Origin: Dethiobacteria bacterium | GTDB lineage: Bacteria; Bacillota; Dethiobacteria; DTU022; UBA8154 | Direction: 5' to 3' | Assembly (NCBI GenBank): GCA_050948825.1 | Contig: JBMNEO010000005.1 | Span: 100,432-164,431, forward strand | DNA: 64,000 nt | Part shown: positions 10,858-64,000 of the stretch, in pieces | How positions within the stretch are numbered: position 1 is the stretch's first letter | Layout: each line of letters starts with the position of its first letter | The notes under the pieces: model-generated | The model's input: only the letters and a program-made list of their open reading frames with translations | The model's database searches: none | What the model was told of the DNA's origin: nothing | Translations under genes and position numbers: made by a program

Positions 10858-11925
10858 GTGATAATATTGATCTTAATGATGAAACGCGAAGCGGATAAAG
10901 CGGCAGTAAACAGGGTTGAAAAGCAACTGGAGCAAATGGGCTGCCGTTCTGTGACCATCAGAAGCAGCGAAGGGGTCATTATCAGCGTAACAGGTGGAAA
11001 CAGGTCGGAAGGCCTGCGGGACCTTGCTCTGCTCCCGGAGATTGAAAGGGTTATAGATGTTACGGTTCCCTACAAACTAGCCAGCAGAGAAATTAAAAAG
11101 GAAAAAAGCGTGCTGGATCTTCAGGATGGGGTAAGCATAGGCGGCAAAGAGGTAATCATAATGGCCGGACCCTGTGCCGTAGAAAGCGAAAAAATGCTTT
11201 TTACTATTGCAGAGCAGGTTGCCCGCGCAGGTGCACGGGTCCTGCGCGGCGGGGCATTTAAGCCCAGGACATCCCCCTACAGCTTCCAGGGCCTGGAAGA
11301 AAAGGGGCTAAAAATCCTGGCGGAAGCCGGGAAAAGAACCGGGCTTAAGATTGTTACCGAGGTAATCAGCCCTCAGGACGTGGAACTGGTTGCCTGTTAC
11401 GCTGATATTTTGCAGGTAGGTGCCCGTAATATGCAAAATTATTCCCTGTTGCGCAGGCTGGGGAAACAGCAGAAACCGGTATTATTAAAAAGAGGCTTTT
11501 CGGCTACCATCGAAGAATGGCTTATGTCTGCGGAATACATCCTGTCAGAAGGGAATTTTAACGTTATTCTTTGTGAAAGAGGGATACGTACATTTGAAAC
11601 ATACACCCGCAACACTCTGGATATCAGCGCCGTTCCGCTTGTGAAGAATTTGAGCCATCTGCCTGTAATTGTGGATCCCAGCCACAGCAGCGGGGACAGC
11701 AAGCTTGTACCGGCACTTTCCAGGGCGGCAATCGCCTCTGGAGCCGATGGTCTCTTAATTGAAGTTCATTCGCACCCGGAAGACGCTTTCTGCGATGGCA
11801 ATCAATCCTTAAACCCCAGGGAATTTCAATTCTTGATGAATAATCTGGCAGATTTCACCAGGGTGTGTGAACGTACGCTTAAAATAAATAATCAACCCGT
11901 AAAGAGTTTCGTTAAGGCAATCTGA
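10858..11925 (+). CDS. DAHP synthase paralog (class I-beta with an N-terminal regulatory domain)
   Basis: 355 aa; …MAGPCAVESE…GARVLRGGAFKPRTSPYSFQGL…; the likely true start is TTG at 10867, 7 nt after AGGGAG. Confidence 0.85.
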   Translation: MIILILMMKREADKAAVNRVEKQLEQMGCRSVTIRSSEGVIISVTGGNRSEGLRDLALLPEIERVIDVTVPYKLASREIKKEKSVLDLQDGVSIGGKEVIIMAGPCAVESEKMLFTIAEQVARAGARVLRGGAFKPRTSPYSFQGLEEKGLKILAEAGKRTGLKIVTEVISPQDVELVACYADILQVGARNMQNYSLLRRLGKQQKPVLLKRGFSATIEEWLMSAEYILSEGNFNVILCERGIRTFETYTRNTLDISAVPLVKNLSHLPVIVDPSHSSGDSKLVPALSRAAIASGADGLLIEVHSHPEDAFCDGNQSLNPREFQFLMNNLADFTRVCERTLKINNQPVKSFVKAI

Positions 11926-12026: not shown

Positions 12027-12860
12027 ATGAGCAAAATACTGGGTTTCCTGGGCCCCCCGGGAACGTTTACAGAAGAAGCATCCATAAAATATGCCAGGGA
12101 TAAGGATTTATTGCTTAAATCCTTCCCTGTTCTTGATCAAGTGTTTAGCGCTGTTATGCGCAAAGAAATAGAATATGGGGTAGTACCTGTAGAAAACTCG
12201 CTGGAGGGATCTGTCAGCCTTACCCACGATCTTCTTTCCAATTCCCAGGTGAAAATACAAGGCGAGCTGCTTATCCGGGTAAGGCAATTCCTCCTGGCAC
12301 GTCCGGGTCAAAAACCTGCCCAGATTCGAGAAATCTGTTCCCATCCGCAAGCCCTGGCCCAGTGCCGCTTATACCTGGATAAAAATTATCCCGGAAAGCC
12401 GCGGATTAATATCTCAAGCACAGCCGGGGCCGCTGCTATGGCGGCGCAAAATGACGGTAAAGCTGCGATAGCTTCTTTACGTGCAGCGGAGCTGTACGGC
12501 CTTGAAATACTCCAGGGCAACATCCAGGATGACCAATCCAATATCACCCGTTTTCTTTTACTTGCCCTGGACGATGCGCACCCTACAGGAAAAGATAAAA
12601 CGTCCTTACTGGTCGGGCTGCCCGACAAACCGGGAACCCTTTATTCAATACTAGGCATTTTTGCTCGTTACAGCATTAACCTGACAAAGATCGAATCCCG
12701 TCCCATCAAGGGCAAGTTAGGAAAATATATATTTTTTCTGGATTTTGTTGGGCACCGGAAGGATAATACAGTAGCCCGGGCTCTGTTGGAAGCGGAAAAA
12801 CAGGCGGTATTTTTAAAAATACTGGGAAGTTACCCGCGTGCGGAAAAAGCCGGTTGCTGA
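12027..12860 (+). CDS. pheA: Prephenate dehydratase (PDT catalytic domain plus C-terminal ACT domain)
   Basis: 277 aa; MSKILGFLGPPGTFTEEAS…; C-terminal ACT-like TSLLVGLPDKPGTLYSILGIFARYSINLTKIESRP. Confidence 0.85.
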   Translation: MSKILGFLGPPGTFTEEASIKYARDKDLLLKSFPVLDQVFSAVMRKEIEYGVVPVENSLEGSVSLTHDLLSNSQVKIQGELLIRVRQFLLARPGQKPAQIREICSHPQALAQCRLYLDKNYPGKPRINISSTAGAAAMAAQNDGKAAIASLRAAELYGLEILQGNIQDDQSNITRFLLLALDDAHPTGKDKTSLLVGLPDKPGTLYSILGIFARYSINLTKIESRPIKGKLGKYIFFLDFVGHRKDNTVARALLEAEKQAVFLKILGSYPRAEKAGC

Positions 12861-51188: not shown

Positions 51189-52034
51189 TTAAGCACTGCT
51201 GCAACTTTTATTTATTAACTCCAGCAGTTTTAATCTGCTGAAAAAAGTCCCTGCACCATGCCTGGCAGAGGAAGCCGGATTATTTTCTGTCCCGGCAATA
51301 CTACCATTAATGTCGGTAATGCCGGTAATAAAATCCTGCCAGATAATAACCTGCTCCGATCCAACCTTTTCCACAAGATGATCAATAAGCTGCCCGGGGA
51401 AGCTGCCGGCGATAAATACTTCCCGCCCGCATTCATTCATCGGGGGTATGCTATTTTCGTTTGGAGCCTTTTTACCGGAGATGATCTCCAGCAACTCTTT
51501 TTCACACAGGATATCCAGGATACTGTCTGCGGCCATCTCCTGCTCTGCTCCGGGAGGCAGGGCCAACTCATTTCCTAGAACATTATACAGTTCAGCTTTA
51601 TCGTTTATAATAAACTCTTCACCCGCATAATTATGCAGTAAAACAGGTTCTTCTCCGCCAAATCCTTCATCAAAAATATAAATCTGATAAGCAGCTCCGG
51701 TTAACTCCAAAAAATCAAGCAGTCCCCCGGGAATTTCTTCATGAACAATTACTTTAACAGCCCGGTTTACGAGTTTATCTTCCAGGAGCAAAGGGGTTAA
51801 ATAATCTTCCTCCAGGGTTTCCCAGTGTAAAAGCTCTTCTTCCAGAAGAGTTAACGACGTAAAGTAAGTATTAACCTCATCTTTATAACGCACTATTTCA
51901 CTTCTTAAACTGTCAATAACAGCAATTTGATTGTGAATTAGCGCATTTTCTCCCATGGACGCACCGATCAGAATTCCGATTCCCAGGGCTAAAAAAACAG
52001 CGATTAGTGAAAAAAAATGATTTTGCTGGTCCAT
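51189..52034 (-). CDS. MctB/SteB-like membrane-anchored protein (annotated 'copper transporter' family, DUF3186)
   Basis: 281 aa; N-terminal TM HFFSLIAVFLALGIGILIG; sits beside a SteA-like gene as in actinobacterial steA-steB. Confidence 0.45.
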   Translation of the reverse strand: MDQQNHFFSLIAVFLALGIGILIGASMGENALIHNQIAVIDSLRSEIVRYKDEVNTYFTSLTLLEEELLHWETLEEDYLTPLLLEDKLVNRAVKVIVHEEIPGGLLDFLELTGAAYQIYIFDEGFGGEEPVLLHNYAGEEFIINDKAELYNVLGNELALPPGAEQEMAADSILDILCEKELLEIISGKKAPNENSIPPMNECGREVFIAGSFPGQLIDHLVEKVGSEQVIIWQDFITGITDINGSIAGTENNPASSARHGAGTFFSRLKLLELINKSCSSA

Positions 52035-52068
52035 TAAAACACGCCTTTATAGTTAAGTAAAATAAAAT

Positions 52069-53214
52069 TTAATGAAATCCGAACCTCCAGGAAAAAAGGT
52101 ATAAAAAATGACGGACAAGCGGAGAGAAAGAGGCCAGCACAACGATTGGGAAAAGTGCTGAAGCAACTAAAATTGATAAATATTGCCATCTGATACCACC
52201 ATGGTACAGTTGGGCAAGGCCTCTGGCATCCACCAGTTTATGGCCCATTTTTAATCTTACCAGGAAAGTTGAAGCCATACCCTTCCTTCCCTTTTCTAAA
52301 AAATCAAGCATATGGGAATGCGAGCCCACGGCCACAATAAGCTCGGCTTTACTTTCATAAGCCAATAGAAATGCCAGATCTTCGCTGGTTCCCGGTGCCG
52401 CAATTATTTTTGCTTCTAAGCCCATGCGGGAAATGCGCTCCATCCCGGGGGCTCTGCCATCCGGATATGCGTGAACGATTATCTCCCCGGCTTTTTTTAG
52501 CGATCTATCCTCAACACTGTCCATGTCTCCGATAATAAGGTGGGGCCTCAGCCCCATCATGCAAAGGGCATCCCCACCTCCGTCAACACCGATAAGCACC
52601 GGCTGAACTTCCCTGATATACGAACGTATCGCTTGCAGATCTTTCTTATAATTTTTACCCCTAACAACAATTAACACATGTTTGCCGGCCAGCCTGGTTT
52701 TGATATCCGGAATATCCAGGTTTTTTAGGATTAGATCTTTTTCCCTTCTGGCATATTCAAGAGTATTTTGTACAAATAAATCAAGCTGCTTTTTTAAATT
52801 TTTTTCTGCTTGATCCAGCTTTTTTTTAAGAAATTGCTTGCTTATTACTCTGCCCTGCCCCAGCATTTCCTCCCTGCAATAAATAGTGCTTCCTGCAATT
52901 GTGACAATCTCTCCCTCGCGTAGAAGTGAATATAGTTTATCCCCAACATTATCCAAAACATAAATACCCTGATCGAGCAATACTTTTGTTCCAAGCGCGG
53001 GATATTCGCCGTTAAAAGTGTTATCAACATTGATTACCGCCTTAACCCCTCTTTCTGCAAGTTCCTGCCCTGCCAATTCATCAAGATTTTTATGTGCGAT
53101 TAAAGCAATATCACCCGGCTGCAGCCTTTTACAGAGGTTCTTCGTTCTGCGGTCCTTTTTTAGAATTCCCTTATAGATCTTTTCCATAAAACCACCTGAA
53201 ACAATTATTATCAT
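52069..53214 (-). CDS. SteA-like protein (thiamine-pyrophosphokinase-like fold, putative cytokinetic ring protein family)
   Basis: 381 aa; directly downstream of spo0A; C-terminal TM segment. Confidence 0.45.
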   Translation of the reverse strand: MIIIVSGGFMEKIYKGILKKDRRTKNLCKRLQPGDIALIAHKNLDELAGQELAERGVKAVINVDNTFNGEYPALGTKVLLDQGIYVLDNVGDKLYSLLREGEIVTIAGSTIYCREEMLGQGRVISKQFLKKKLDQAEKNLKKQLDLFVQNTLEYARREKDLILKNLDIPDIKTRLAGKHVLIVVRGKNYKKDLQAIRSYIREVQPVLIGVDGGGDALCMMGLRPHLIIGDMDSVEDRSLKKAGEIIVHAYPDGRAPGMERISRMGLEAKIIAAPGTSEDLAFLLAYESKAELIVAVGSHSHMLDFLEKGRKGMASTFLVRLKMGHKLVDARGLAQLYHGGIRWQYLSILVASALFPIVVLASFSPLVRHFLYLFSWRFGFH

Positions 53215-53353: not shown

Positions 53354-54151
53354 CTATAGAACCTTGTAGTCGTACTTTCTATTTTTTAAACGAATCCTAT
53401 CGGCCACAAGGGCAATAAACTCAGAATTTGTTGGTTTGCCCTTTTCTGTATTAATTGTATAGCCAAAGAATTTTTTTATCGTATCAATATTATTTCTGGC
53501 CCAGGCAACTTCAATAGCATGGCGGATTGCCCGTTCCACCCTGCTCGGTGTAGTTTCATATTTTTGAGCAATGCGCGGGTAGAGAATTTTTGTAATTGAA
53601 CCAAGCAGCTCAATCTCCTCAGCTACCATAGAGATAGCATCGCGCAGATAAAGATAACCCTTTATATGTGCCGGAATACCAATTTCATGAATAATCTGAG
53701 TAATTTCCTCAATAAAGCCATTATCCTTCCTGATATTAATATTCTTTACCGGATTAACCTGTATCTTCCCGCTTCCGGCAGGTACTTTGCCCAGCTGTCT
53801 AATTCTTTCAGCCAGAACCTCCAAATTAAACGGTTTAAGTATGTAATAAGATGCCCCCAGTTCAACCGCCCTTTGGGTTATATTTTCATGTCCAAAAGCA
53901 GTCAACATGATCACTTTCGGTTTCGGGGAGAGCTCCATTTTATTTAATTCTTCCAGCACTCCGATCCCGTCCAGGTGAGGCATTATTATATCAAGTAGAA
54001 TAATATCAGGATTTTTTTCTTTTACCAGTTCCAATACCTCTTTGCCATTAAAAGCATTGCCAATAATATCCATATCCTCTTCTTTACTTAAATACTCCGA
54101 CAAAAGTTCATTAAATTCCCTATTATCATCTGCGATTAAAATTTTAAACAT
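53354..54151 (-). CDS. spo0A: Stage 0 sporulation protein A (master response regulator)
   Basis: Start [21 protein letters not shown] (GGGGG 7 nt upstream); receiver domain; C-terminal Spo0A DNA-binding domain (…[45 protein letters not shown]…). Confidence 0.9.
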
Positions 54152-54196
54152 TTTAAAGCCCCCTTCAATTAACTGAATTATTCTTTTCATATAATT

Positions 54197-54221
54197 ATTC
54201 GACATTAAAAAGACAGTTCCT
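54197..54221 (-). promoter_or_regulatory. Candidate sigma-H-type (Ps-like) spo0A promoter with an overlapping 0A box
   Basis: Minus strand: aAGGAAct, 17 nt, GAAT; TGTCGAA (Spo0A box consensus) overlaps the -10. Confidence 0.35.
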
Positions 54222-54263: not shown

Positions 54264-55577
54264 TTAAGAAACAGGAATTATATTTGTTTCTTTCACCATC
54301 CATTCAGCATAAATCCCGTATCCTCTCGTAGGGTCATTGACAAAAACATGGGTTACAGCTCCAATCAGGCAGCCGTTCTGGATAATCGGGCTGCCGCTCA
54401 TACCCTGCACGATACCTCCTGTTAACTCCAGTAATTCTTCGTCAACAATGCGTAAAATAATTCCTTTATCACCAGGCGTGTTTTTATTTACCGCCCTTTC
54501 GATTTCAATTTCAAAACTTTGTATTTTATTCCCCTCCACAACGGTAAGGAGCTCTGCCGGCCCTGGTTCAACTTGAAAGGCAAGGCCAAGCGGGATAGGA
54601 TCGGGATATGGTGTGACATACTCCCCAACATTGTGCAACTCACCGTATATCCCAAATTTACAGTTTTTCCTGATACTTCCCAAAATGTCCTTTCCTTCTC
54701 GAAAAATCCCCGCTTTTTCACCGGGACGACCTTTTCGTGCCGTTTTAATATTCACTATATCAGCTCTTACAATCATACCGTCGTTAATTTCCAGGGCTGC
54801 GTTGGTATCCAGGTCATTAATGATATGGCCCAGCGCACCATAGAATTGGTTCTCAGGATCATAAAAAGTTAATGTCCCCACACCGGCAGCGGTGTCCCTG
54901 ATATATAAACCGATGCGTCTTTCCCCGGTTTCCGGGCAGGGGTAAGGGACGACATTTATAATAACTGTTTCTTTTTGTCGTTTAACGGTAAACTTCAAAT
55001 CCCCTTTTGCAGATTCACTTCTGATTACATCGGCTGCCATATCAATATCATCTATTGCTATACCGTTCACTTTAATAATTACATCTTCAATAAGAATCCC
55101 GGCTTCCTCAGCAGGTGAAAATTTATTCTTTCCGGTTTCCAGATAAAAATATCCTACAGCAAGCACTCCTTTTTCATGAAGTTTAATCCCGATGGAATGG
55201 CCGCCCGGGATTAACTCCATCTCAGGCAAAACACTTACAGTGAGCTGCTTGATTGGAATAAGCCCTTTAAAAAGGCTTAATTCCAGGTTTACATTTCCCC
55301 GGGAAACACCCCGCAGCGAGATATCATTCTGAAATCCCAGCAGGCTTATTTCATCATCGCCCACAGGAGAGCCGTTGATATTAAGAATATCTGCTCGATC
55401 AGCTTTGATATAAAGGTCGAGGGGGAATTTAACAGAGTAGGAGTGTTCCTGCCCTTCAAAAAGCCGGATATTATCCTCGAGGTGAATTCTTATTTCCAGC
55501 GGCAGAAACAATAAAAAAAGCACTGTAAAGACCGTTATTACCATTAGTATATTTCTTTTTCTGTGAAGGTTGCTCAT
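54264..55577 (-). CDS. spoIVB: SpoIVB peptidase (S55)
   Basis: PDZ domain plus catalytic GGIVQGMSGSPIIQNGCLIGAVTHVFVNDPTRGYGIYAEWM; spoIVB-spo0A arrangement as in Bacillus. Confidence 0.85.
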   Translation of the reverse strand: MSNLHRKRNILMVITVFTVLFLLFLPLEIRIHLEDNIRLFEGQEHSYSVKFPLDLYIKADRADILNINGSPVGDDEISLLGFQNDISLRGVSRGNVNLELSLFKGLIPIKQLTVSVLPEMELIPGGHSIGIKLHEKGVLAVGYFYLETGKNKFSPAEEAGILIEDVIIKVNGIAIDDIDMAADVIRSESAKGDLKFTVKRQKETVIINVVPYPCPETGERRIGLYIRDTAAGVGTLTFYDPENQFYGALGHIINDLDTNAALEINDGMIVRADIVNIKTARKGRPGEKAGIFREGKDILGSIRKNCKFGIYGELHNVGEYVTPYPDPIPLGLAFQVEPGPAELLTVVEGNKIQSFEIEIERAVNKNTPGDKGIILRIVDEELLELTGGIVQGMSGSPIIQNGCLIGAVTHVFVNDPTRGYGIYAEWMVKETNIIPVS

Positions 55578-55813
55578 CCTAATCCTCCCGATAACAATGC
55601 AATTTTTTTTTGCAATTTTTTTTAAGAACAATTTTAAATTGCCTCCGGGAGTTTTTTTTATGCTCCAACTGTTTACATAACCTTAATGTTTTATTTGGCA
55701 TTAATAACAATAAAAAACCTCATTTATTTTTTAAATGAGGTTTTGCGGTATAAAAATTTTAATTTTACGGGGAAGAAAAGATTATTTCTCCCCATATTCC
55801 GGCAATCTCGCGC

Positions 55814-57496
55814 TCATCCGCGTGATTTCTTTAATAGTTCCTCTGCATGGCGCCTGGTTATTTCACCGGTATCGTTACCGCTGAGCATGCGGGCAATTTC
55901 AAGGACCCTGTTTTCACCCTCAAGATAATTCACGCGTGTTGCCGTGCGACCTTCAATTATTTCTTTGTATATATAATATTGGTGATCAGCCGCGCTTGCA
56001 ATATGGACATTGTGTGTTACCGAAATAATCTGGTGCTTTTTGCTTAAATTTACCATTTTTTCAGCTACTTTCTGGATAGTCTTTCCTCCAATACCGCTGT
56101 CAATTTCATCAAAAATTAACACAGGGATATGATCCTGCTCGGCAAGGATGCTTTTTAATGCGAGCATTACCCTGGCCATTTCTCCGGCAGATATTATTCG
56201 CGCCAGGGGTTTTAAAGGTTCTCCGGGATTCGCGGAAAATAAAAATTCCAGCTCTTCTTTCCCCCTGTGGTCCGGGGTATCCTTGGGGGTAAAACCGACA
56301 GAAAAACGGGCACTTTCCATCCCCAGTTCTTGCAGGGCTTCTGCCACCTGCAGCTCGAGTTTTTTGGCTGTTTCTTTCCTCTTGAACGACAACTGTTCGG
56401 CAAAGGTCTCAATTTCAACCTGCAGTTCCTGCAGCTGTTCTTCCAAAAGCAGCGATTCTTCCTCGCTGCTTTCCAAAACACTTATTTCATGACGGCACTG
56501 TTTTTCAAAAGCAAGAATCTCTTCGACGGTTGCTCCGTATTTGGATTTTAAACGACGGTAGAGTTCCAGCCGGTTTTCTATTTCTATTTTTTCTTCGGGG
56601 CAGTATACAAGCCCCTCCAGATATGAGTAAAGATCATGTCCCAGTTCTGATAACCCTGCACTGATCTCCTGCAAGACTTGAATAAAAGGGGTAAGAGCGG
56701 CATCAACCTTAACCAGGGAAGAAAACTCTTCTGTAAAACTATTAATCGTATCCAAAACAGCCGGCAAGTCATGATCATTACCATAGATTTGGTTATATGC
56801 CCTGTTGGCTGTAAAGAGCAGTTTCTCCATATTATCCAGGACCAATAGCCTTTCCCTTAAGCTGTTCTCTTCATCTGCAGCGATAGAAGCATCGTGAATC
56901 TCATCCCTTTGAAAACGGAGCATTTCAAGCCGGCGCTCCCGCTCCCGGGGGGAGATACCGCGTTCGTTCAGTTTTTTCTTGATCTCCTGCCTGCGATCAA
57001 TGAAACCGATCATTTGCTGTTTGACCTTCAAGAGTTCCTCATCCCCGAATTCATCCAAAAGGTACAAATGCTGTTCGGGCCTTAAAAGGGATTGGTGGCT
57101 GTGCTGGCCGTGAAGATCAACCAGGATAGTGCCCAGCTCTTTTAAGGCTGTCAGGGGAACAATACGCCCGTTTACCCGGCAGGTATTCCGACCGCTGCGT
57201 GATATCTCCCTGGTAACGATCAGCTCCTTTTCAAAATCAGGGCCGTATGCTTCCAGTATTTTTTTTAATTGGAGGTCAGCTTCAGAGACTTCAAAAACCG
57301 CTTCGATAATTGCTTTGCTGCATCCAGTTCTCACCTGCTCGCTGGCTGCCCTCTCACCCAGGATAAGATTAATTGCTCCAATCAGAATTGATTTCCCGGC
57401 CCCTGTTTCCCCTGTTAAGACATTCATGCCGGGGAAAAATTCTATCGATAGATCATCGATCAGGGCAAAATCTCGCAGATGTAAAAATGAGAGCAT
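55814..57496 (-). CDS. recN: DNA repair protein RecN
   Basis: Start MLSFLHLRDFALIDDLSIEFFPGMNVLTGETGAGKSILI; SMC-like coiled coil; C-terminal signature. Confidence 0.9.
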   Translation of the reverse strand: MLSFLHLRDFALIDDLSIEFFPGMNVLTGETGAGKSILIGAINLILGERAASEQVRTGCSKAIIEAVFEVSEADLQLKKILEAYGPDFEKELIVTREISRSGRNTCRVNGRIVPLTALKELGTILVDLHGQHSHQSLLRPEQHLYLLDEFGDEELLKVKQQMIGFIDRRQEIKKKLNERGISPRERERRLEMLRFQRDEIHDASIAADEENSLRERLLVLDNMEKLLFTANRAYNQIYGNDHDLPAVLDTINSFTEEFSSLVKVDAALTPFIQVLQEISAGLSELGHDLYSYLEGLVYCPEEKIEIENRLELYRRLKSKYGATVEEILAFEKQCRHEISVLESSEEESLLLEEQLQELQVEIETFAEQLSFKRKETAKKLELQVAEALQELGMESARFSVGFTPKDTPDHRGKEELEFLFSANPGEPLKPLARIISAGEMARVMLALKSILAEQDHIPVLIFDEIDSGIGGKTIQKVAEKMVNLSKKHQIISVTHNVHIASAADHQYYIYKEIIEGRTATRVNYLEGENRVLEIARMLSGNDTGEITRRHAEELLKKSRG

Positions 57497-57572
57497 CTGA
57501 AACACCTTCCCAAAAAAATTCAAAACTATTAAAGCAGATCTCCACCTGGAACAGTAATCCCTTAGCCAGATT

Positions 57573-58421
57573 CTAAATTAGTTTATCGTGTAACAGCTTA
57601 TAAAAATTATTTTCTTCAAAGGTAATTACTTTTGTTACACACTCCGCCCGCCTGATATGAATAGAATCGTTATATTTTAAGGCAAAGCCTTCCTGGCCAT
57701 CCAGCGTCAAAAAAATATCGGCACCCTTTGTGGCTACAGTTAAAGATACAACGTCATTTTGATCGACAATTACAGAACGCTGATAGAGCAGATGGGGGCA
57801 AATAGGAGTAACTACAAGTACATTAAGAAACGGGTTTACAACCGGGCCTCCTGCAGACAAGGAATAACCGGTAGATCCTGTCGGGCTTGCAATGATCACC
57901 CCATCTCCCGGATAACTCTCTAAAAAATCGTGATTAATATATGTATCGATTCTAATAATCCTGGAGAACGGCCCCCTGGAGACAATGACATCATTCAATG
58001 AAATAGATGAAGCGAAATACCGATCGTCTCTAATCACTTCGGTATGAAGCATCATCCGTTCACCAAGCCGATAGTCCCCTTTAACAAGTTTTTCCATAAA
58101 ATAGCTTAGCTTGTCGATTTCGATTTCGGCCAGAAAACCCTTATGGCCTAGATTTATTCCTAAAATGGGAAGTTTTGTACAGGCCAGCTCCCTGGAGGCC
58201 CTTAAAAAAGTGCCGTCACCTCCTACAACAATCGCCAGATCAACTATTTGCGGCCATTTTTTGATTTCATCTATTGGTGAAGCCACGTGCAAAAGGGGAT
58301 CTTTCTCCGGTGCAACATATACAGGGATGCCATGGCTGCTGAAAAAGCTTTTGATACCAGTGACAACTTCCGGCACCCTTTTTTTTTGCCAGTTGGGTAT
58401 TACTCCGATACCTTTTAACAA
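57573..58421 (-). CDS. nadK: NAD(+) kinase
   Basis: 282 aa; GGDGTFL, NDV…RG motifs. Confidence 0.85.
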   Translation of the reverse strand: MLKGIGVIPNWQKKRVPEVVTGIKSFFSSHGIPVYVAPEKDPLLHVASPIDEIKKWPQIVDLAIVVGGDGTFLRASRELACTKLPILGINLGHKGFLAEIEIDKLSYFMEKLVKGDYRLGERMMLHTEVIRDDRYFASSISLNDVIVSRGPFSRIIRIDTYINHDFLESYPGDGVIIASPTGSTGYSLSAGGPVVNPFLNVLVVTPICPHLLYQRSVIVDQNDVVSLTVATKGADIFLTLDGQEGFALKYNDSIHIRRAECVTKVITFEENNFYKLLHDKLI

Positions 58422-58449
58422 CGCGCCTTTCCCCTTCCCTGTAAATTTC

Positions 58450-59289
58450 TCAACTCTTCTTCAGGCAGGAATGGGCCTCCAGAACTACTTCTCTAATAAT
58501 ACACTGCAGCTCTCCAAACAGTTCCTTACCCGGCAGGACCGTTTGGCCACTATTTCGCAAAAGATATAATAGAAATTCTATGTTGCCTTTCGGCCCTTTC
58601 AGTGGAGAAAAGGTGATTCCTCCCACAAGATAGGAAAGCTCTAAAGAAAGTATAGCGATCTTTTCCAGGACTTCTTCATGAACCTCTTTAGATCTAACCA
58701 CTCCTTTTTTTCCAACCTGAGAGCGGAGAGCTTCAAACTGGGGTTTAAGCAGGCAGATTACTTCGTTGATGCCCAGCGCGGCAACAACCGGCAGTACTTT
58801 TTCCAGTGAAATAAAAGAAACGTCAATTACCGCCAGTTGCGGCACAGGTGATAAGTCTTCTTTTTTTAAAAAACGGACATTAAAACGTTCCATATTTACA
58901 ACCCTGGGATGGTTGCGTAATACCCAGGCCAGCTGGCCATAACCGACATCAAGCGCATACACTTTCTCTGCTCCGTTATCTAAAGCGCACTGGGTAAAAC
59001 CTCCCGTGGAAGCGCCGATATCAAGAACGATTTTCCCCTTCATATCGATTCCAAACTCATCCAGCGCTTTTTTAAGTTTCAATCCTCCCCTGCTGACGTA
59101 CGGGTTTGCAGGCTTATGCAGATCAATATTTGCTAAGATCGGGGTAAGTGATCCCGGTTTATCGCTTTTTTTCCCGTTTACAAAGACATTGCCGGCCATA
59201 ATTTCGGCTCTGGCGCGGCTTCGCGTAGGGAAAATATTTTTTTCTACCAGAAGAACATCAAGACGTTTTTTTTCTTTCTCCCCGGTCAT
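58450..59289 (-). CDS. tlyA: TlyA family rRNA 2'-O-methyltransferase
   Basis: 279 aa; S4 domain plus FtsJ-like MTase (…VLDIGASTGGFTQCAL…). Confidence 0.8.
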   Translation of the reverse strand: MTGEKEKKRLDVLLVEKNIFPTRSRARAEIMAGNVFVNGKKSDKPGSLTPILANIDLHKPANPYVSRGGLKLKKALDEFGIDMKGKIVLDIGASTGGFTQCALDNGAEKVYALDVGYGQLAWVLRNHPRVVNMERFNVRFLKKEDLSPVPQLAVIDVSFISLEKVLPVVAALGINEVICLLKPQFEALRSQVGKKGVVRSKEVHEEVLEKIAILSLELSYLVGGITFSPLKGPKGNIEFLLYLLRNSGQTVLPGKELFGELQCIIREVVLEAHSCLKKS

Positions 59290-59292
59290 TTA

Positions 59293-61185
59293 TTATTTCT
59301 TCTCACCTTCCCGGCAGAGTTGGAGAGCCGCATCTGCTATTCCTTTGCTGCTCAGCCCATGAAGTTTCAGCAGATAATCCCTGCTCCCCCTTCCGGTAAA
59401 CGGATCGTGAAATCCCAGGCGCTTCAGGTGCACCCCTTTCATCCCTTCCTCCTCCAGGAGCTCTAAAACTGCGCTGCCAAACCCTCCGGCCAGAAGATGA
59501 TCTTCCACTGTCAGAATCTTACCGCATTTATCGCCCCAGCGGCAGATCAGCTCCCTGTCCAGAGGTTTGATAAAGCGGGGGTTGATAATGCAGCTTTGAA
59601 TACCCTCTTTTTGGAGCAGTTCATGAGCTTTTAGGGCTTCGGAAACCAAGCAGCCTGCTGCAAGGATTAAAATATCGCCGCCCTCTTTTAAAAGAATGCC
59701 TTTCCCTAATGGCAGCGCGGCCGGTACCGGGCCTTGCGGCAAAGGTTCGTGAACTTTTCCCCGCGGATACCTGATTGCCGCCGGGCATTTTAAATCAAGG
59801 GCAGTTTTCAACATGGAAGCCAGTTCAGCACCGTTGCCGGGTGCCATGAGCACTATGCCCGGCAGATGGCGCAGAAAAGCAATATCAAAAAGGCCATTAT
59901 GGGTTTCCCCGTCCTCCCCCACTATACCCGCGCGGTCAATGGCGAAGATCACATGCAGATTTTGCAGGCAGACATCGTGCAGGATTTGGTCATATGCCCT
60001 TTGCAGAAAAGTGCTGTAAATAGCGACCACCGGCTTTAGCCCCTCAATAGCAAAGCCCGCGGCCATTGTAACAGCATGCTGTTCTGCTATCCCAACATCA
60101 AAAAACCGTTCCGGCCACCTGTTGGAGAACCCTTCCAGACCGGTGCCGCTGGTCATCGCCGCAGTTATGGTGACTATTTCAGCATCGCCGGTGGCGAACT
60201 CTTCCATTGCATGGCCAAAAACCTGGCTGTAGCTTGTAGCTGTGCTGTTTGCTTTCAGTAATTTTCCTGTACCTTTATCAAAAGGTCCCACTCCGTGAAA
60301 AAAATGCGGGTCCTTTTCAGCATAAATATAGCCCTTACCTTTCTTTGTTACTGCATGGATTAATATGGGACCCTTAACCCCTCTGGCTTCCCGGAAAAGT
60401 GCCAGCAAGCCCGGGATATTATGCCCGTTTACAGGCCCCAGGTAAGTAAAACCAAGTTCTTCAAAGAGCATCCCCGGAACCAGCAAGTATTTTACGCTGT
60501 CCTTGAGACGTTCGGCCGAGCGCAGCATGGTACGGCCAATAGCGGGAATTCTCTCCAGCAGCTGTTCCAGATCCTCCTTTAACCGGAAATATTTTGGATC
60601 GGTTCTCAACCTTGCCAGATACGAATGCACTCCACCTACATTTTGGTCAATAGACATCTCGTTATCGTTTAAAATAACAGTTAGATCGGTGTTGGTATCT
60701 CCGGCATAGTTTAGTGCCTCAAAGGCCATGCCTCCTGTTAATGCGCCGTCTCCGATTACACTTACAACGGAAAAGTTTTTCTTCCGCAGATCCCTGGCCT
60801 GAGCCAGCCCCAGTGCTGCAGAAAGCGATGTACTGCTGTGCCCGGTGCCAAAAACATCATAAGGGCTTTCCTCAATATTTGGAAAACCACTGATCCCTTC
60901 ATAACATCTTATCGTCTCGAACTGCTCCCTGCGCCCTGTGATGATTTTATGGGCATAACACTGGTGCCCCACATCCCATATTATTTTATCTTCCGGTGTA
61001 TTAAATATGTAATGAAGAGCCAGCGTCAACTCGACAACACCCAGGCTGGAAGCCAGATGCCCTCCTCTTTTTGAGATAACCTTAACCATCAGTTCCCTAA
61101 TTTCAACGGCAAGCCGTTCAAGTTCATTTACTTTAAGCCTTCTTAAATCTGCGGGCTCATTGATACTCTGCAATAATAACTTCAA
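59293..61185 (-). CDS. dxs: 1-deoxy-D-xylulose-5-phosphate synthase
   Basis: 630 aa; TPP-binding GDGALTGGMAFEALN; DRAG…EDGETH. Confidence 0.95.
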   Translation of the reverse strand: MKLLLQSINEPADLRRLKVNELERLAVEIRELMVKVISKRGGHLASSLGVVELTLALHYIFNTPEDKIIWDVGHQCYAHKIITGRREQFETIRCYEGISGFPNIEESPYDVFGTGHSSTSLSAALGLAQARDLRKKNFSVVSVIGDGALTGGMAFEALNYAGDTNTDLTVILNDNEMSIDQNVGGVHSYLARLRTDPKYFRLKEDLEQLLERIPAIGRTMLRSAERLKDSVKYLLVPGMLFEELGFTYLGPVNGHNIPGLLALFREARGVKGPILIHAVTKKGKGYIYAEKDPHFFHGVGPFDKGTGKLLKANSTATSYSQVFGHAMEEFATGDAEIVTITAAMTSGTGLEGFSNRWPERFFDVGIAEQHAVTMAAGFAIEGLKPVVAIYSTFLQRAYDQILHDVCLQNLHVIFAIDRAGIVGEDGETHNGLFDIAFLRHLPGIVLMAPGNGAELASMLKTALDLKCPAAIRYPRGKVHEPLPQGPVPAALPLGKGILLKEGGDILILAAGCLVSEALKAHELLQKEGIQSCIINPRFIKPLDRELICRWGDKCGKILTVEDHLLAGGFGSAVLELLEEEGMKGVHLKRLGFHDPFTGRGSRDYLLKLHGLSSKGIADAALQLCREGEKK

Positions 61186-61244
61186 AAGACCACATCCTGA
61201 ACAAAAAAGAAATGGAGATTAGAAATTAAACAACCGCTCCTTCT

Positions 61245-61808
61245 TCAATGATTACCCTTTATCCTGCGCCGCCGTTTACTGTTCTTCCAAAACAATGCCT
61301 TTTCAAGGGTTGTTATAATCCGTGCTGCAGCCAGAACAATTTCTATCGAATTATTAATTGCCAGTGATTTCCCGTATGCTTTACCGCCTACAGTTATCGC
61401 CGAAACAACGCCTGCCATAATAATGCTTAAGTATATTTCGCCCGGTTCCTGCACTCCCACGGCCAGACTGATAGTAATTATCGCACCGATACTTCCGCTT
61501 ACAATACCGCTGATATCACCGATAACATCATTGCAAAAATTGGCGACCTGTTCGGCATTGCGTACCATGTAAATTCCTTTTTTGGCGCCGTAGATCTTTT
61601 TGGCGGCTTTGGAATGAAAGGGCTTTTCATCAGCAGCAGTTATAGCTGTACCAATAATATCAAAAAAAATACCGATAAAAATTACTAATATTAAAAGAAT
61701 AAACGAAATTAAAACCGACTGCAGATTTTTCAGCAGCAATTGTGTTACCAATGAGAAAATAACAGCCAGAATAAAGGTCCAGAAACCAACCAGTATTACC
61801 CAAAACAT
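61245..61808 (-). CDS. oapA: Small polytopic membrane protein, candidate OLE-associated protein A
   Basis: Start probably MFWVILVGFW… (about 187 aa, about 4 TM); it sits between dxs and the long ORF-free region next to ispA. Confidence 0.45.
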   Translation of the reverse strand: MFWVILVGFWTFILAVIFSLVTQLLLKNLQSVLISFILLILVIFIGIFFDIIGTAITAADEKPFHSKAAKKIYGAKKGIYMVRNAEQVANFCNDVIGDISGIVSGSIGAIITISLAVGVQEPGEIYLSIIMAGVVSAITVGGKAYGKSLAINNSIEIVLAAARIITTLEKALFWKNSKRRRRIKGNH

Positions 61809-61829
61809 GGTTCCTCTTTTCTGACCCCG

Positions 61830-62441
61830 CCTGTTTTTTTTCAAAACTTGTTGCACCTCGATAAATAAAAAGGACATAAGTGGCAACCCTATGAGTAAAC
61901 TTTGCGGCTTAAGGTCCAGCAGGTTTTCCCAAATGCCCGCCTGCCTGTCACCAGGCAGGCAGTTTCCTTTTAAGAGCATTTCTGCCGTGTTGCCAACAGC
62001 AGGGCTGGATTACCACTCAGACCACACTTTAATCCCCACAGGGCTTCTCACCGGTGAAAACAGCCTAGGAGTTTTCCTCAATGGCACATTTAACGTTTTC
62101 TATCCTCTTTTGCAGCACTGGTTTCCTAAGGATGTACCTTTCTCCCCCAGAACCACTCAAGGCAGGCTACACTGTGCACAGTTTCTGCCGCACACAGGTT
62201 CAAGCCTAAGCCGTAACCTTTTACCTGTCGGTAATGCGCCACCAACTTAGGTCTCCACGAAGGCAGGGTCAACGCCTACATGCCTTTGTAGATCGCCCCA
62301 TCCTTCTTAACTCCCAGCACCAACCCCCGACTGGGCTTCGGCAGCCAGCACCAGGAACTTCATCGATATGCCCTAAACGGATTTTTAGGCCCGTTTTCAA
62401 AAACGATGTGCCAACTAGGATACTGCACCACCTACGTCCTG
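61830..62441 (-). ncRNA. ole: Candidate OLE (ornate, large, extremophilic) RNA
   Basis: About 600 nt with no credible ORF, between ispA and the small membrane protein, upstream of dxs (the canonical OLE locus); highly structured GC-rich helices (e.g. ctgcctgcctggtgacaggcaggcgg); its own promoter lies immediately after the ispA stop. Confidence 0.5.
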
Positions 62442-62447
62442 ATTAAA

Positions 62448-62476
62448 ATTATAGCATAACCTGTTGCCTAACTCAA
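62448..62476 (-). promoter_or_regulatory. Sigma-A promoter for the candidate OLE RNA/oapA transcript
   Basis: Minus strand: TTGAGT, 17 nt, TGcTATAAT (extended -10). Confidence 0.5.
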
Positions 62477-62483
62477 TGCAGGG

Positions 62484-63401
62484 CTAGTAGTCTCTGTATA
62501 AGATAAAACGGGTAAGTTCACGTAAAACATCAGCTTTGTCGCCAAAACCGTCCAGTTCTTTTAACGCCAGGTTGTAAAGCTCCTCTCTGCGTTTTTTTGC
62601 GCCATTAAGGCCGTAAAGGGATACGCAGGTCGGCTTCTGGTTCTTTGCGTCCATCCCCTTTGCCTTGCCCATTTTTTCTTCGTCACCTTCTATATCCAGC
62701 AGATCATCGACAACTTGAAAAGCACGCCCCAATAGATCGGCATATTTTGTTAGACTGCACAGATCTTGACGGCCGGCTCCCGAGGCAAGCGCTCCCAGGC
62801 GCACCGACGCTGTGATTAGCGCTCCTGTTTTATGGCGCTCTATATAATCCAGCGTTTCTGCAGAAATACATTTCCCTTCGGATTCAAGATCAACTACCTG
62901 CCCGCCAATCATCCCGTTTACCCCTGCAGCCGCAGCGATTTCAAAAATTATCTTTAACTTTACCTCCGCAGCTACATCATTCCAGTAGCCGCTTGCATAT
63001 CTGTTATATCTTTCCTTCATACCCGCCATAATTTCAAAAGCCAGGGTAAGTAGCGCATCTCCCGCCAGAACAGCCAGGGCTTCCCCAAAAACCTTGTGCG
63101 AGGTAAGGCGGCCTCTTCTGTAGTCGTCATTATCCATCGCCGGCAGGTCATCGTGAATAAGCGAGTATGTATGGATGAGCTCCAGGGCACAGGCAGGCGG
63201 GATAACCTTTTGCCAATCTGGGGAAAACAACTCCGCAGTTAGCAAGGATAAAATTGGCCTGATCCGTTTCCCTCCGGCAAAAACGCTGTAATGCAGAGCC
63301 CGGTTAATGCTTGAAGGATATTCTGTTTCATCCGGCAAAAAGTACCGCAACGCCGTGTCGATAACCGCTTTTCTTTCTTCCAGTAATGTGTTTAAATACA
63401 T
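62484..63401 (-). CDS. ispA: Farnesyl diphosphate synthase (polyprenyl synthetase)
   Basis: FARM (LIHDDLPAMDNDDYRRG) and SARM (VVDDLLDIEGD) motifs. Confidence 0.85.
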   Translation of the reverse strand: MYLNTLLEERKAVIDTALRYFLPDETEYPSSINRALHYSVFAGGKRIRPILSLLTAELFSPDWQKVIPPACALELIHTYSLIHDDLPAMDNDDYRRGRLTSHKVFGEALAVLAGDALLTLAFEIMAGMKERYNRYASGYWNDVAAEVKLKIIFEIAAAAGVNGMIGGQVVDLESEGKCISAETLDYIERHKTGALITASVRLGALASGAGRQDLCSLTKYADLLGRAFQVVDDLLDIEGDEEKMGKAKGMDAKNQKPTCVSLYGLNGAKKRREELYNLALKELDGFGDKADVLRELTRFILYRDY

Positions 63402-63405
63402 GGTC

Positions 63406-63660
63406 TTATGCCTCTTCAGCTTCTTTATACTCTTCCAGCTCCCCATTTTGCAGAATCTGCTCCACTTTAAATTCCGCTTCTGTCAACAGCTTGCGGCAAT
63501 GGCGTGTTATTTTCATACCCTCTTCAAAATGCCGCAGCGATTCATCAAGGGAGAACTCTTCGTTTTCCATTTTTTCAACGATTTCTTCCAGTTTTTTCAG
63601 GGCTTCCTCGTAGGTCATCTTTAAAAAATCTTCTTCGTGCACAATAAAACCTCTTTTCAA
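63406..63660 (-). CDS. xseB: Exodeoxyribonuclease VII small subunit
   Basis: 84 aa; …FLKMTYEEALKKLEEIVEKMENEEFSLDESL…. Confidence 0.85.
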   Translation of the reverse strand: MKRGFIVHEEDFLKMTYEEALKKLEEIVEKMENEEFSLDESLRHFEEGMKITRHCRKLLTEAEFKVEQILQNGELEEYKEAEEA

Positions 63661-63663
63661 TGA

Positions 63664-64000
63664 TCAGCGATCCAGTTGATTATCAAAAGGTATTTTCCTT
63701 ATTATTTCCCTGACCCGGCAATTTGCCTCTCCATCATAAAAAACAACTCTGATATCCTGGTCTTCCCTCAGTCTGGACGTATTGTTGAGGACCCGATTAT
63801 TTTCATCCACAACAAAAGTATACCCCCGGCCCATAATTTTTAAAGGGCTCAGCGCTTTGAGTTTCTCTTCAAAGCTGCGAATTTCGGCTCCTTTAAGCTT
63901 GATATTGTAAGCAATTATTCTCATCAGCCGCTGCCACTGCTCGTCTATACGCTGCTGGCCCTGATTTATTATATCACGAGGATATTGTTGCAACGCTGCC
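63664..64000 (-). CDS. xseA: Exodeoxyribonuclease VII large subunit (C-terminal part; the gene continues beyond the window)
   Basis: C-terminal segment …LSPLKIMGRGYTFVVDENNRV…; the ORF is open to the window end. Confidence 0.75.
   Translation of the reverse strand, partial: AALQQYPRDIINQGQQRIDEQWQRLMRIIAYNIKLKGAEIRSFEEKLKALSPLKIMGRGYTFVVDENNRVLNNTSRLREDQDIRVVFYDGEANCRVREIIRKIPFDNQLDR

What the first reader, a model, noticed from the sequence alone, without database searches (positions are those of the whole stretch)
61830..62476. Candidate OLE RNA with oapA in the canonical ispA-[RNA]-membrane protein-dxs locus
The 500-680 nt stretch between ispA and the small 4-TM protein gene is non-coding and GC-rich. 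It forms many long imperfect helices and carries its own strong promoter (TTGAGT-17-TGcTATAAT) directly after the ispA stop. The surrounding synteny (xseA-xseB-ispA-RNA-small membrane protein-dxs-tlyA-nadK-recN-spoIVB-spo0A) is exactly where OLE RNA and its partner OapA are found in anaerobic or extremophilic Firmicutes. OLE is one of the largest, still functionally enigmatic bacterial ncRNAs, so a new representative plus its OapA partner is worth confirming. I could not recall OLE consensus motifs well enough to verify them by eye, so the call rests on synteny and on ruling out tmRNA, RNase P, SRP and riboswitch hallmarks.
Basis: partly seen in the sequence, partly recalled or inferred. Interest (0 to 1): 0.7.

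Follow-up and report, generated by a model that had tools for sequence, protein, structure and literature searches.

The report
OLE RNA gene with oapA partner

Summary
Confirmed. Window 61864..62447 (minus strand) matches Rfam RF01071 (OLE RNA) over the whole model at 475.6 bits (gathering score 50, E 1.7e-137). It keeps 229 of 245 highly conserved consensus positions and 130 of 144 consensus base pairs. The next gene (61245..61844, minus) encodes a 199-aa helical membrane protein. Its homologues sit directly downstream of an OLE-like sequence in all 77 genome loci that have upstream DNA, which is the operational definition of OapA. It has a weak CNNM (PF01595) match, its predicted fold hits only the archaeal CNNM transporter MtCorB, and it carries the invariant NFCNDVIGDISGIVSG motif. 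The synteny xseA-xseB-ispA-ole-oapA-dxs-tlyA-nadK-recN-spoIVB-spo0A was verified with Pfam. The promoter TTGAGT-17-TGcTATAAT is real and conserved.

Corrections:
- The 244-aa ORF that overlaps OLE is an over-extension.
- "GC-rich" means only 50% against 44% for the window.

This copy belongs to a minority with a short P9 arm, which lies within published variation. The nearest relatives are Dethiobacteria. What OLE does biochemically remains unknown for the whole family, and this locus adds no new handle on that. Novelty is low.

The parts
62448..62476 (-). Sigma-A-type promoter of ole: -35 TTGAGT, 17-nt spacer, extended -10 TGcTATAAT. It starts 8 nt after the ispA stop codon.
   Evidence: 10 of 12 matches, TG present. 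Both hexamers and the TG are conserved in L084 and L001 while the spacer differs. An equivalent promoter scores at least 10 of 13 upstream of ole in 57 of 68 loci, against 2 of 68 control regions.
61864..62447 (-). ole gene: OLE RNA, 584 nt, full length.
   Evidence: Rfam RF01071, 475.6 bits, E 1.7e-137, model 1-616, not truncated. 229 of 245 conserved consensus positions match. 130 of 144 consensus pairs are canonical. Covariation was shown on 69 sequences. MFE z = -6.0.
62302..62367 (-). P5 stem (62312..62356) with its flanks J4a/5 (AUCGAUGAAGU, 62357..62367) and J5/6 (GUUAAG side). These segments form the OapC-binding kink turn in H. halodurans.
   Evidence: Both flanks are identical to the Rfam consensus. 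The helix pairs in 94.8% of cells and 14 of its 20 pairs covary (helix 2). The role comes from PMC9723947. Formation of the k-turn was not tested here.
61982..62002 (-). P13 hairpin with a GNRA tetraloop (GCAA) and a single bulged nucleotide (G). These are the OapB-binding determinants.
   Evidence: Alignment to the Rfam consensus and coordinates. The requirement for a GNRA loop plus bulge comes from PMC7936274. One U-C mismatch lies inside the stem.
61939..61960 (-). P14.1 hairpin with a GUGA (GNRA) tetraloop. This is a weak secondary OapB site in H. halodurans.
   Evidence: The plus-strand 'terminator-like' hits here are just this hairpin read from the other strand.
61864..61884 (-). 3' end of OLE. 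The GCCACUUAUGUCC segment pairs with the 5' GGACGUAGGUGG segment and is followed by a U-rich tail (UUUUUAUU). The scan called no canonical terminator on this strand.
   Evidence: MFE structure, the U-rich 3' tail of the Rfam consensus and the terminator scan.
61854..61859 (-). Shine-Dalgarno GAGGTG for oapA, 9 nt before the TTG start.
   Evidence: Read directly from the sequence. Conserved in L084.
61245..61844 (-). oapA: 199-aa integral membrane protein (TTG start) with basic N- and C-termini, a basic loop and an invariant NFCNDVIGDISGIVSG motif (DxxxD at residues 106-110).
   Evidence: 2029 homologues were found; the best is 95% identical and starts MKKNRR/LKKNRR. CNNM PF01595 scores 26.8 bits, just under the 28.4 cutoff. 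The hydropathy profile has peaks in four regions. The AF2 model has pLDDT 75.7, and the only confident fold matches are MtCorB 7m1t/7m1u. OLE lies upstream of homologues in 77 of 77 loci.
62484..63446 (-). ispA (farnesyl diphosphate synthase), the upstream neighbour.
   Evidence: PF00348 at 190 bits and NF045485 FPPsyn at 349.9 bits against a cutoff of 275.
59293..61185 (-). dxs (1-deoxy-D-xylulose-5-phosphate synthase), the downstream neighbour.
   Evidence: TIGR00204 at 821.7 bits.

Best explanation
Window 61864..62447 (minus strand) is the ole gene, encoding a full-length OLE (ornate, large, extremophilic) RNA. Window 61245..61844 is oapA, encoding its membrane partner. The host is a spore-forming Bacillota organism whose nearest relatives are Dethiobacteria.

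Shown here:
- Family membership by sequence, structure and covariation.
- The ole-oapA pairing.
- A conserved sigma-A-type extended -10 promoter directly upstream.
- No detectable terminator between ole and oapA.

Inferred from this anatomy:
- The promoter drives an ole-oapA (and probably dxs) transcript, in addition to read-through from xseA-xseB-ispA.
- The 584-nt RNA accumulates because its 5' and 3' ends pair and protect it.

Inferred from published work on H. halodurans and C. acetobutylicum:
- The RNA dimerises and is bound cooperatively by OapA dimers, which tether it at or in the cytoplasmic membrane.
- Where the genome encodes them, the P13 GNRA hairpin with its bulge recruits OapB, and the P5-flanking kink turn recruits OapC.
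- The resulting ribonucleoprotein helps cells tolerate stresses such as short-chain alcohols, cold, excess Mg2+ and poor carbon sources. It probably overlaps in function with CNNM/MpfA-type Mg2+ exporters, whose transmembrane domain OapA resembles.

The biochemical activity of the RNA itself is unknown for the whole family.
For: - Rfam RF01071: 475.6 bits, E 1.7e-137, full model.
- 93.5% of the highly conserved consensus positions are identical, and 90% of consensus pairs are canonical.
- An independent covariation test used 68 OLE sequences retrieved only through oapA homology. 87.1% of cells pair, against 40-48% when partners are slid. 112 of 142 pairs show compensatory changes. The covariation score is 0.477 against at most 0.16 for slid controls, and 0 of 500 shuffles reach the observed value.
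- The oapA homologue family is tied to OLE in 77 of 77 loci.
- OapA has weak CNNM similarity by sequence and by fold, as published for OapA (PMC11332333).
- P13 has a GNRA loop plus a bulge, and the k-turn flanks are identical to the consensus.
- The promoter is conserved. B. halodurans ole is reported to have its own promoter inside a larger operon (PMC9723947).
- The gene neighbourhood matches the published ole neighbourhood of isoprenoid, DNA-repair and sporulation genes.
- The same gene order occurs in a relative with 80% OapA identity (L084).
Against: Nothing contradicts membership. The limits are these:
- No expression, localisation or binding data exist for this organism.
- oapB and oapC were not looked for, and a 64-kb window could not exclude them.
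- The P9 arm is about 38 nt shorter than in most representatives, and P8 is short.
- One P13 pair is a U-C mismatch, and the bulged base is G rather than the U of H. halodurans.
- No direct alignment to experimentally studied OapA was possible.
- The mechanism beyond 'membrane-tethered RNP' is unresolved in the literature.
Confidence: 0.97

Rival explanations
1. The region is protein-coding. Either the 244-aa ORF 61245..61979 is the true long form of the membrane protein, so the 3' quarter of the 'RNA' is its N-terminal coding sequence, or the 119-aa plus-strand ORF 61891..62250 is a gene.
For: Both ORFs exist. Gene callers on public metagenome contigs carrying this exact locus called the 244-aa form.
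Against: Homologues begin at MKKNRR, aligned to the TTG at 61844. None of those retrieved carries the 45-residue extension. The extension lies on P12-P14.1, where substitutions across 69 sequences are compensatory base-pair changes (helices 12-19). The covariance model covers the region at posterior probabilities near 1. In the relative L084 the gene was called at the TTG start with a 640-nt gap after ispA.
Confidence: 0.01
2. It is a decayed or non-functional OLE remnant. It is recognisable by sequence but no longer works, because the P9 distal arm is missing and P8 is short.
For: P9 is 61 nt against a median of 99, and P8 is 26 nt against 32. The literature mentions rare, apparently defective ole genes (PMC11332333).
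Against: Those defective copies were seen in organisms lacking OapA. Here an intact, conserved oapA follows directly. The score of 475.6 bits would be above the 390-bit 'full-length' class cutoff of Fernando and Breaker, although that cutoff was set with their own model rather than Rfam's. The short P9 form is shared by 10 of 69 loci from different lineages, and the remaining stems still pair. The promoter is conserved. Shorter P7-P9 stems are a published natural variation.
Confidence: 0.02
3. It acts mainly as a cis-acting 5' leader that controls oapA-dxs expression, in the manner of a riboswitch or attenuator, rather than as a trans-acting RNP component.
For: The RNA lies 19 nt upstream of the oapA start, no terminator was detected between them, and the promoter is shared.
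Against: The only Rfam hit reaching a gathering score in this region is OLE. In H. halodurans the RNA accumulates as a discrete species of about 630 nt, is among the most abundant transcripts, binds OapA, OapB and OapC, and localises to membranes. No expression platform, meaning an alternative terminator or anti-terminator or an SD-sequestering helix, is evident. The SD lies outside the structured core.
Confidence: 0.03

Closest known systems
OLE RNA (Rfam RF01071), e.g. Halalkalibacterium halodurans ole and the 577-nt Clostridium acetobutylicum OLE solved by cryo-EM
   Same: It matches the covariance model over its full length (475.6 bits). It has the same conserved single-stranded blocks: GGUGCAGUAUyCUAGU, CCUAAAAAUCC, AUCGAUGAAGU, GUGUAGCCUGCCUUGAGUGG, CUGCAAAAGAGG, GAGGAAAACUCCUAG, GGAUUAAAGUG..AGUGGUAAUCCAG, GGGAAAACCU and GGACCU.AAGCCGCAA. 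It also shares the same helices with covariation, the P13 and P14.1 GNRA loops, its own promoter inside a larger gene cluster, and oapA immediately downstream.
   Different: At 584 nt it is near the short end. The distal arm of P9, which carries the GGCC-containing apical loop in 58 of 69 sequences compared, is absent (P9 is 61 nt against a median of 99). P8 is short. The P13 bulge is G, not U. The host is a Dethiobacteria-like organism known only from metagenomes.
OLE 'variant 1' of Fernando and Breaker 2024 (shorter P7, P8 and P9; common in the TANB77 clade)
   Same: It has shortened P8 and P9 stems.
   Different: Variant 1 RNAs score 310-390 bits on those authors' own model (the Rfam score here is not strictly comparable) and often lack the P13 OapB site. 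This RNA scores 475.6 bits on the Rfam model, has a normal-length P7 (47 nt against a median of 46) and keeps the P13 GNRA loop and bulge. It is therefore better described as a full-length OLE with a compact P9.
OapA (OLE-associated protein A, H. halodurans BH2780 / WP_010898928.1)
   Same: It is about 200 aa, is predicted to be all helical with hydrophobic peaks in four regions, and has basic clusters at both termini and in a loop. It is encoded directly downstream of ole. It shows sub-threshold similarity to the CNNM/DUF21 transmembrane domain and a fold match to MtCorB. It has a conserved DxxxD-containing motif.
   Different: It could not be aligned directly with the experimentally studied protein. 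Identity to Bacillaceae homologues is about 40-45%. RNA binding was not tested.
CNNM/CorB/MpfA Mg2+ transporters (PF01595)
   Same: The transmembrane-domain fold is similar: Foldseek probability 1.00 to 7m1t/7m1u, TM-score 0.45-0.53 normalised to the query. PF01595 scores 26.8 bits.
   Different: It lacks the CBS-pair and CorC/HlyC cytoplasmic domains. It scores below the Pfam gathering threshold. It is not a member of that family in the strict sense. The literature proposes that OLE RNA may stand in for the missing domains.

Membership tests
OLE RNA (RF01071) | Covariance-model score above the curated gathering threshold over the full model | tested here: met
   475.6 bits against a gathering score of 50, model positions 1-616 of 616, not truncated, E 1.7e-137.
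OLE RNA (RF01071) | About 600 nt with roughly a quarter of nucleotides almost invariant | tested here: met
   584 nt. 229 of 245 upper-case consensus positions are identical. Long invariant blocks are shared with 68 other loci.
OLE RNA (RF01071) | Ornate multi-helix secondary structure supported by covariation | tested here: met
   130 of 144 consensus pairs are canonical in the window. On 69 sequences, 87.1% of cells pair against 40-48% for slid controls, and 112 of 142 pairs have changes on both sides. The weaker helices (P7, P8 and distal P9, 56-72% paired) fall in regions that MAFFT aligns poorly.
OLE RNA (RF01071) | oapA immediately downstream on the same strand | tested here: met
   oapA starts 19 nt after the end of the model. 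The same arrangement holds in 77 of 77 homologue loci.
OLE RNA (RF01071) | Host is a Bacillota organism, typically an anaerobe or extremophile and often a spore-former | tested here: met
   spo0A and spoIVB are in the window. The nearest OapA homologues are named Dethiobacter, Dethiobacteria or Candidatus Contubernalis alkaliaceticus. The organism itself is unnamed and is represented only by metagenome contigs. Its lifestyle is inferred.
OLE RNA (RF01071) | [quoted passage not shown] | tested here: met
   Loop GCAA, bulged G, at 61982..62002. There is one internal U-C mismatch. Binding was not tested.
OLE RNA (RF01071) | Sequences flanking P5 that can form the OapC kink turn | tested here: inconclusive
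   J4a/5 and J5/6 are identical to the consensus, so the elements are present. The alternative k-turn fold itself was not modelled or tested.
OLE RNA (RF01071) | Abundant stable transcript, membrane localisation, dimer formation | not testable with these tools
   This needs RNA-seq or northern blots, fractionation, and mass photometry or cryo-EM.
OapA | Small (about 200 aa) integral membrane protein predicted to have four transmembrane helices | tested here: met
   199 aa. Kyte-Doolittle peaks lie at about residues 16-34, 43-61, 107-131 and 135-153. The AF2 model is all helical. Topology was not determined.
OapA | Near-exclusive co-occurrence with, and adjacency to, ole | tested here: met
   77 of 77 loci with upstream DNA carry an OLE-like sequence ending 15-200 nt before the homologue.
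OapA | Weak homology to the CNNM (DUF21) transmembrane domain, clustering just below true MpfA/CorB proteins | tested here: met
   PF01595 scores 26.8 bits against a cutoff of 28.4. The Foldseek top four hits are all MtCorB. This matches the published description.
OapA | Conserved clusters of positively charged residues proposed to contact RNA | tested here: met
   6 K/R in the first 14 residues, 7 in the loop at residues 72-100, and 7 in the last 15. That these face the cytoplasm is inferred.
OapA | Sequence homology to the experimentally characterised H. halodurans OapA (WP_010898928.1) | not tested
   The reference sequence was not retrievable. The nearest proxies are the homologues next to OLE in Halalkalibacter wakoensis and H. 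lacteus (L068 and L078; 39-40% identity, E 6e-43 and 2e-42).
OapA | Cooperative binding of OLE RNA (at least 2:1) | not testable with these tools
   This needs a biochemical assay.
CNNM/CorB/MpfA transporters (PF01595) | Pfam gathering score reached, plus CBS-pair and CorC/HlyC domains | tested here: not met
   The score of 26.8 bits is below 28.4. No other domain was found, and the protein ends after the transmembrane region. It is therefore not filed as a CNNM transporter.

The most novel reading that the evidence does not exclude
The compact form seen here lacks the distal P9 arm and has a short P8, yet keeps a full-strength core and an intact P13 OapB site. It could be a distinct, recurrent structural subtype of OLE: 10 of 69 sequences compared have it, the length distribution is clearly bimodal, and it occurs in Dethiobacteria-like, Syntrophomonadaceae-like and Thermovenabulum genomes. 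If so, the flexible P9 arm seen by cryo-EM would be dispensable for core function, and these sequences would offer a naturally minimised OLE for structural work.
Probability: 0.3. Interest if true: 0.25.

Novelty: new member of a known kind. Interest (0 to 1): 0.15.

Why it matters
OLE remains one of the largest bacterial non-coding RNAs without a known biochemical function, and recent work proposes that it spans the membrane as a dimer. This locus does not open that question any further, because it is one more canonical representative among about 2,850. Its practical value is limited to three points:
- It corrects an annotation. The public gene calls at this locus extend oapA 45 codons into the RNA.
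- It documents OLE/OapA in an uncultured Dethiobacteria-like lineage.
- It adds a naturally compact, short-P9 sequence that could be useful to structural biologists.

Tried and rejected
- A sequence search of the candidate OapA against PDB chains found nothing meaningful (best E 0.14, a beta-hexosaminidase). No OapA structure is deposited.
- NCBIfam has no OapA model. The only hit was a spurious 15.5-bit match.
- An exact look-up of the window's TlyA found only short metagenome contigs (Logan SRR31905291, JGI 3300060679 and 3300061452), with no named genome.
- A weak isrK hit inside oapA (22.7 bits against a gathering score of 50, E 0.1) was dismissed as chance.
- The plus-strand 'terminator-like' hits at 61939-61962 are the P14.1 hairpin read on the wrong strand.
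- I considered and rejected the readings as protein-coding sequence, as a decayed remnant and as a cis-regulatory leader (see the rival explanations).
- A literature search for OLE in Dethiobacter found only a soda-lake metatranscriptome that lists OLE reads without linking them to Dethiobacter.
- PM1/D100 terms were not found in PMC10898510. The equivalence of the DxxxD motif here to the residues mutated in the published OapA PM1 mutant therefore rests on my memory only and is not claimed.

Full report
**Observation**

A scan of window 58000-64000 against all 4,227 Rfam families, with permissive filters, gave one strong hit. It is RF01071 (OLE) at 61864..62447 on the minus strand, at 475.6 bits against a gathering score of 50, E 1.7e-137. 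It covers model positions 1-616 of 616 and is not truncated.

A gathering-threshold scan of the whole window found only this hit and two T-box leaders elsewhere.

The 584-nt RNA folds to -236.9 kcal/mol, z = -6.0 against dinucleotide shuffles, and none of 100 shuffles folds as well. Its G+C content is 50.3% against 44.1% for the window. "GC-rich" is therefore true only relative to the AT-rich oapA next door, and the neighbouring dxs gene is similar.

**Fit to the family**

I transcribed the cmscan alignment and counted matches. The window is identical at 229 of 245 upper-case (highly conserved) consensus positions. It forms a standard pair at 130 of 144 consensus pairs. Most of the non-pairs sit in the apical parts of P7, P8 and P9, which the literature describes as variable.

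I also ran a test that does not lean on the Rfam seed:
- I collected loci through the protein only. A scan of one genome per GTDB species for relatives of the downstream protein returned 80 loci.
- I aligned the 68 near-full-length upstream sequences with the window using MAFFT.
- I projected the Rfam consensus structure through the window row and counted pairs.

The result was clear:
- 87.1% of cells pair, against 40-48% when partners are slid by 1-3 columns.
- 112 of 142 pairs show changes on both sides.
- The covariation score is 0.477 against at most 0.16 for slid controls, and 0 of 500 shuffles reach the observed value.
- Helices 12-19 (the P12-P14.1 domain) are 88-100% paired, and nearly every pair covaries.

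**The partner gene**

The ORF list shows a 244-aa ORF at 61245..61979 that overlaps the 3' quarter of OLE.

A search of 5.8 billion proteins gave 2,029 homologues. The closest (95, 88 and 80% identity) begin L/MKKNRRGQK, and they have I, I and V where the window has its ATG codon. The DNA alignment with the 80%-identity relative L084 shows the TTG and a GAGGTG Shine-Dalgarno conserved. The most likely gene is therefore 61245..61844: a TTG start, 199 aa, beginning 19 nt after the end of the OLE model.

Gene callers on public metagenome contigs that carry this exact locus called the 244-aa form. That call is an over-extension into the RNA.

**Is the protein OapA?**

There is no curated OapA model in Pfam or NCBIfam, and no solved structure. 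I therefore tested the published defining properties:
- **Adjacency to ole.** nhmmer with the window's OLE found an OLE-like sequence on the same strand, ending just before the homologue, in 77 of 80 loci. The three without a hit (L008, L018 and L061) have at most 65 nt of upstream DNA. The loci span Bacillaceae (Halalkalibacter, Halobacillus, Rossellomorea, Aeribacillus), Clostridia, Syntrophomonadaceae, Oscillospiraceae, Heliorestis and others.
- **Size and topology.** The protein is 199 aa. Its hydropathy profile has peaks in four regions, and it has basic clusters at both termini and in the loop at residues 72-100. The AlphaFold2 model is all helical, with mean pLDDT 75.7.
- **Weak CNNM relationship.** PF01595 scores 26.8 bits, just under the 28.4 cutoff. 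This matches the published description of OapA as the next-best cluster below MpfA. In a Foldseek search of the PDB the top four hits are all the archaeal CNNM MtCorB (7m1t and 7m1u). Their probability is 1.00 and their TM-score is 0.45-0.53 normalised to the query; every other hit has probability 0.12 or less. Fernando and Breaker used 7M1U for their overlay.
- **Conserved motif.** NFCNDVIGDISGIVSG is invariant or nearly so across 46 homologues.

I could not retrieve H. halodurans OapA for a direct alignment.

**Context**

| Gene | Window coordinates |
|---|---|
| xseA C-terminus | 63664..63993 |
| xseB | 63406..63660 |
| ispA (FPP synthase) | 62484..63446 |
| ole | 61864..62447 |
| oapA | 61245..61844 |
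| dxs | 59293..61185 |
| tlyA-like FtsJ/S4 methyltransferase | 58450..59289 |
| nadK | 57573..58421 |
| recN | 55814..57523 |
| spoIVB | 54264..55631 |
| spo0A | 53354..54205 |

The same order, preceded by two folD genes, occurs in the relative L084 (GCA_900198705.1). This matches the published ole neighbourhood, which links to isoprenoid synthesis, DNA repair, central metabolism and sporulation.

**Transcription signals**

Its hexamers and the TG are invariant in L084 and in the more distant L001, while the spacer differs.

I also scored the 72 nt around the projected OLE 5' end in the 68 loci with an aligned 5' end. 57 have a match of at least 10 of 13, nearly all with the extended -10 TG, against 2 of 68 control regions taken 800 nt upstream. 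This is not new: B. halodurans ole is reported to lie in a large operon but also to have its own promoter (PMC9723947).

No terminator-like site was found on the minus strand between ole and oapA. I therefore infer that oapA is co-transcribed with ole. In the MFE fold, the 3' end of the RNA pairs with its 5' end and is followed by a U-rich tail.

**Functional elements inherited from the family**

- P13 (61982..62002) has a GCAA tetraloop and a single bulged nucleotide. These are the two features required for OapB binding in H. halodurans.
- P14.1 has a GUGA loop.
- The J4a/5 and J5/6 segments, which rearrange into the OapC kink turn, are identical to the consensus.

Whether this organism encodes OapB or OapC is unknown. 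About 60% of OLE hosts carry OapB and about 45% carry OapC.

**Mechanism**

Shown here are family membership, the pairing with oapA, the conserved promoter and the retention of protein-binding determinants.

The following is taken from the literature and only inferred for this locus:
- OLE dimerises (C. acetobutylicum cryo-EM, PMC12286853).
- OapA binds cooperatively and localises the RNA to the membrane.
- The RNP is needed for tolerance of ethanol, cold, Mg2+ above 2 mM and poor carbon sources.
- MpfA-type CNNM transporters anticorrelate with OLE and may be all-protein functional analogues.
- A transmembrane arrangement of the RNA has been proposed.

The catalytic or transport activity of the RNA itself is unknown for the whole family.

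**What is slightly unusual**

Relative to the 68 other sequences, the window's P9 region is 61 nt against a median of 99, and its P8 region is 26 nt against 32. P7 is typical at 47 nt against 46. The P9 length distribution is bimodal: ten sequences have 57-63 nt and all the others have 93 nt or more. The short forms lack the distal arm, whose apical loop contains GGCC in 58 of 69 sequences.

Shorter P7-P9 stems are already described as natural variation ("variant 1"). Those RNAs usually score lower and often lack the OapB site. This RNA does neither.

**Verdict**

The feature is a new member of a well-known family, catalogued in Rfam, with about 2,850 representatives already surveyed in GTDB. 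It offers no new mechanistic handle, and interest is low.

Noticed in passing
window 10050-10332 (-) and 10493-10776 (+): Two divergent T-box leaders sit back to back (108.4 and 98.5 bits against a gathering score of 93). Each precedes a paralogous DAHP-synthase gene. On the minus side the operon is aroF-like (8922-9932), prephenate dehydrogenase (8051-8950) and chorismate synthase (6712-7896), and the specifier reads UAC (Tyr). On the plus side it is aroF-like (10858-11925) and prephenate dehydratase/ACT (12027-12860), and the specifier is ambiguous between GUU and UUC (Phe would fit pheA). The arrangement looks like separate Tyr- and Phe-tRNA-sensing control of two aromatic amino-acid branches.
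   Followed up: partly
window 61845-61979 (-); loci L081 and L082: Public gene calls on metagenome contigs that carry this exact locus annotate a 244-aa 'CNNM (weak)' protein. Its first 45 codons run through OLE P12-P14.1. This is an over-extended start. Homologues start at the TTG at 61844.
   Followed up: yes
loci L001-L079, about 40 nt upstream of each OLE 5' end: An extended -10 sigma-A-type promoter (TTGAnn-17/18-TGnTATAAT) directly abuts the OLE 5' end in most Bacillota loci examined: 57 of 68 score at least 10 of 13, against 2 of 68 controls. An ole-specific promoter is known for B. halodurans. Its near-universal conservation and fixed position may be worth a line in a survey.
   Followed up: partly
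window about 62104-62164 (-), P9 region; A4 columns 449-572: The length of the OLE P9 arm is bimodal. 10 of 69 sequences (the window, L001, L002, L003, L005, L006, L009, L014, L017 and L031) have 57-63 nt, and all the others have 93-114 nt. The short forms lack the distal arm with the GGCC-containing loop.
   Followed up: partly
locus L032 (PWYO01000232.1): One OLE-oapA locus comes from a MAG labelled Actinomycetota. The literature attributes the few non-Bacillota OLE hits to binning errors or horizontal transfer. I did not examine it.
   Followed up: no
locus L079:2194-2899 (Symbiobacteriaceae MAG), A4 columns 159-200: This OLE carries an insertion of about 40 nt between P5 and P6 (ACAGCCGACGGCUGAAACCGGAAGGUUUCAGCCCCAGGCUGC) that is absent from the other 68 sequences. 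It lies in the J5/6 region, which takes part in the k-turn.
   Followed up: no
window 51189-53214 (-): Downstream of spo0A lie a SteA-like protein (PF12555 with a weak TPK_catalytic match, 52069-53214) and an MctB-like protein (PF11382, 51189-52034). They are not part of the finding and were not examined further.
   Followed up: no
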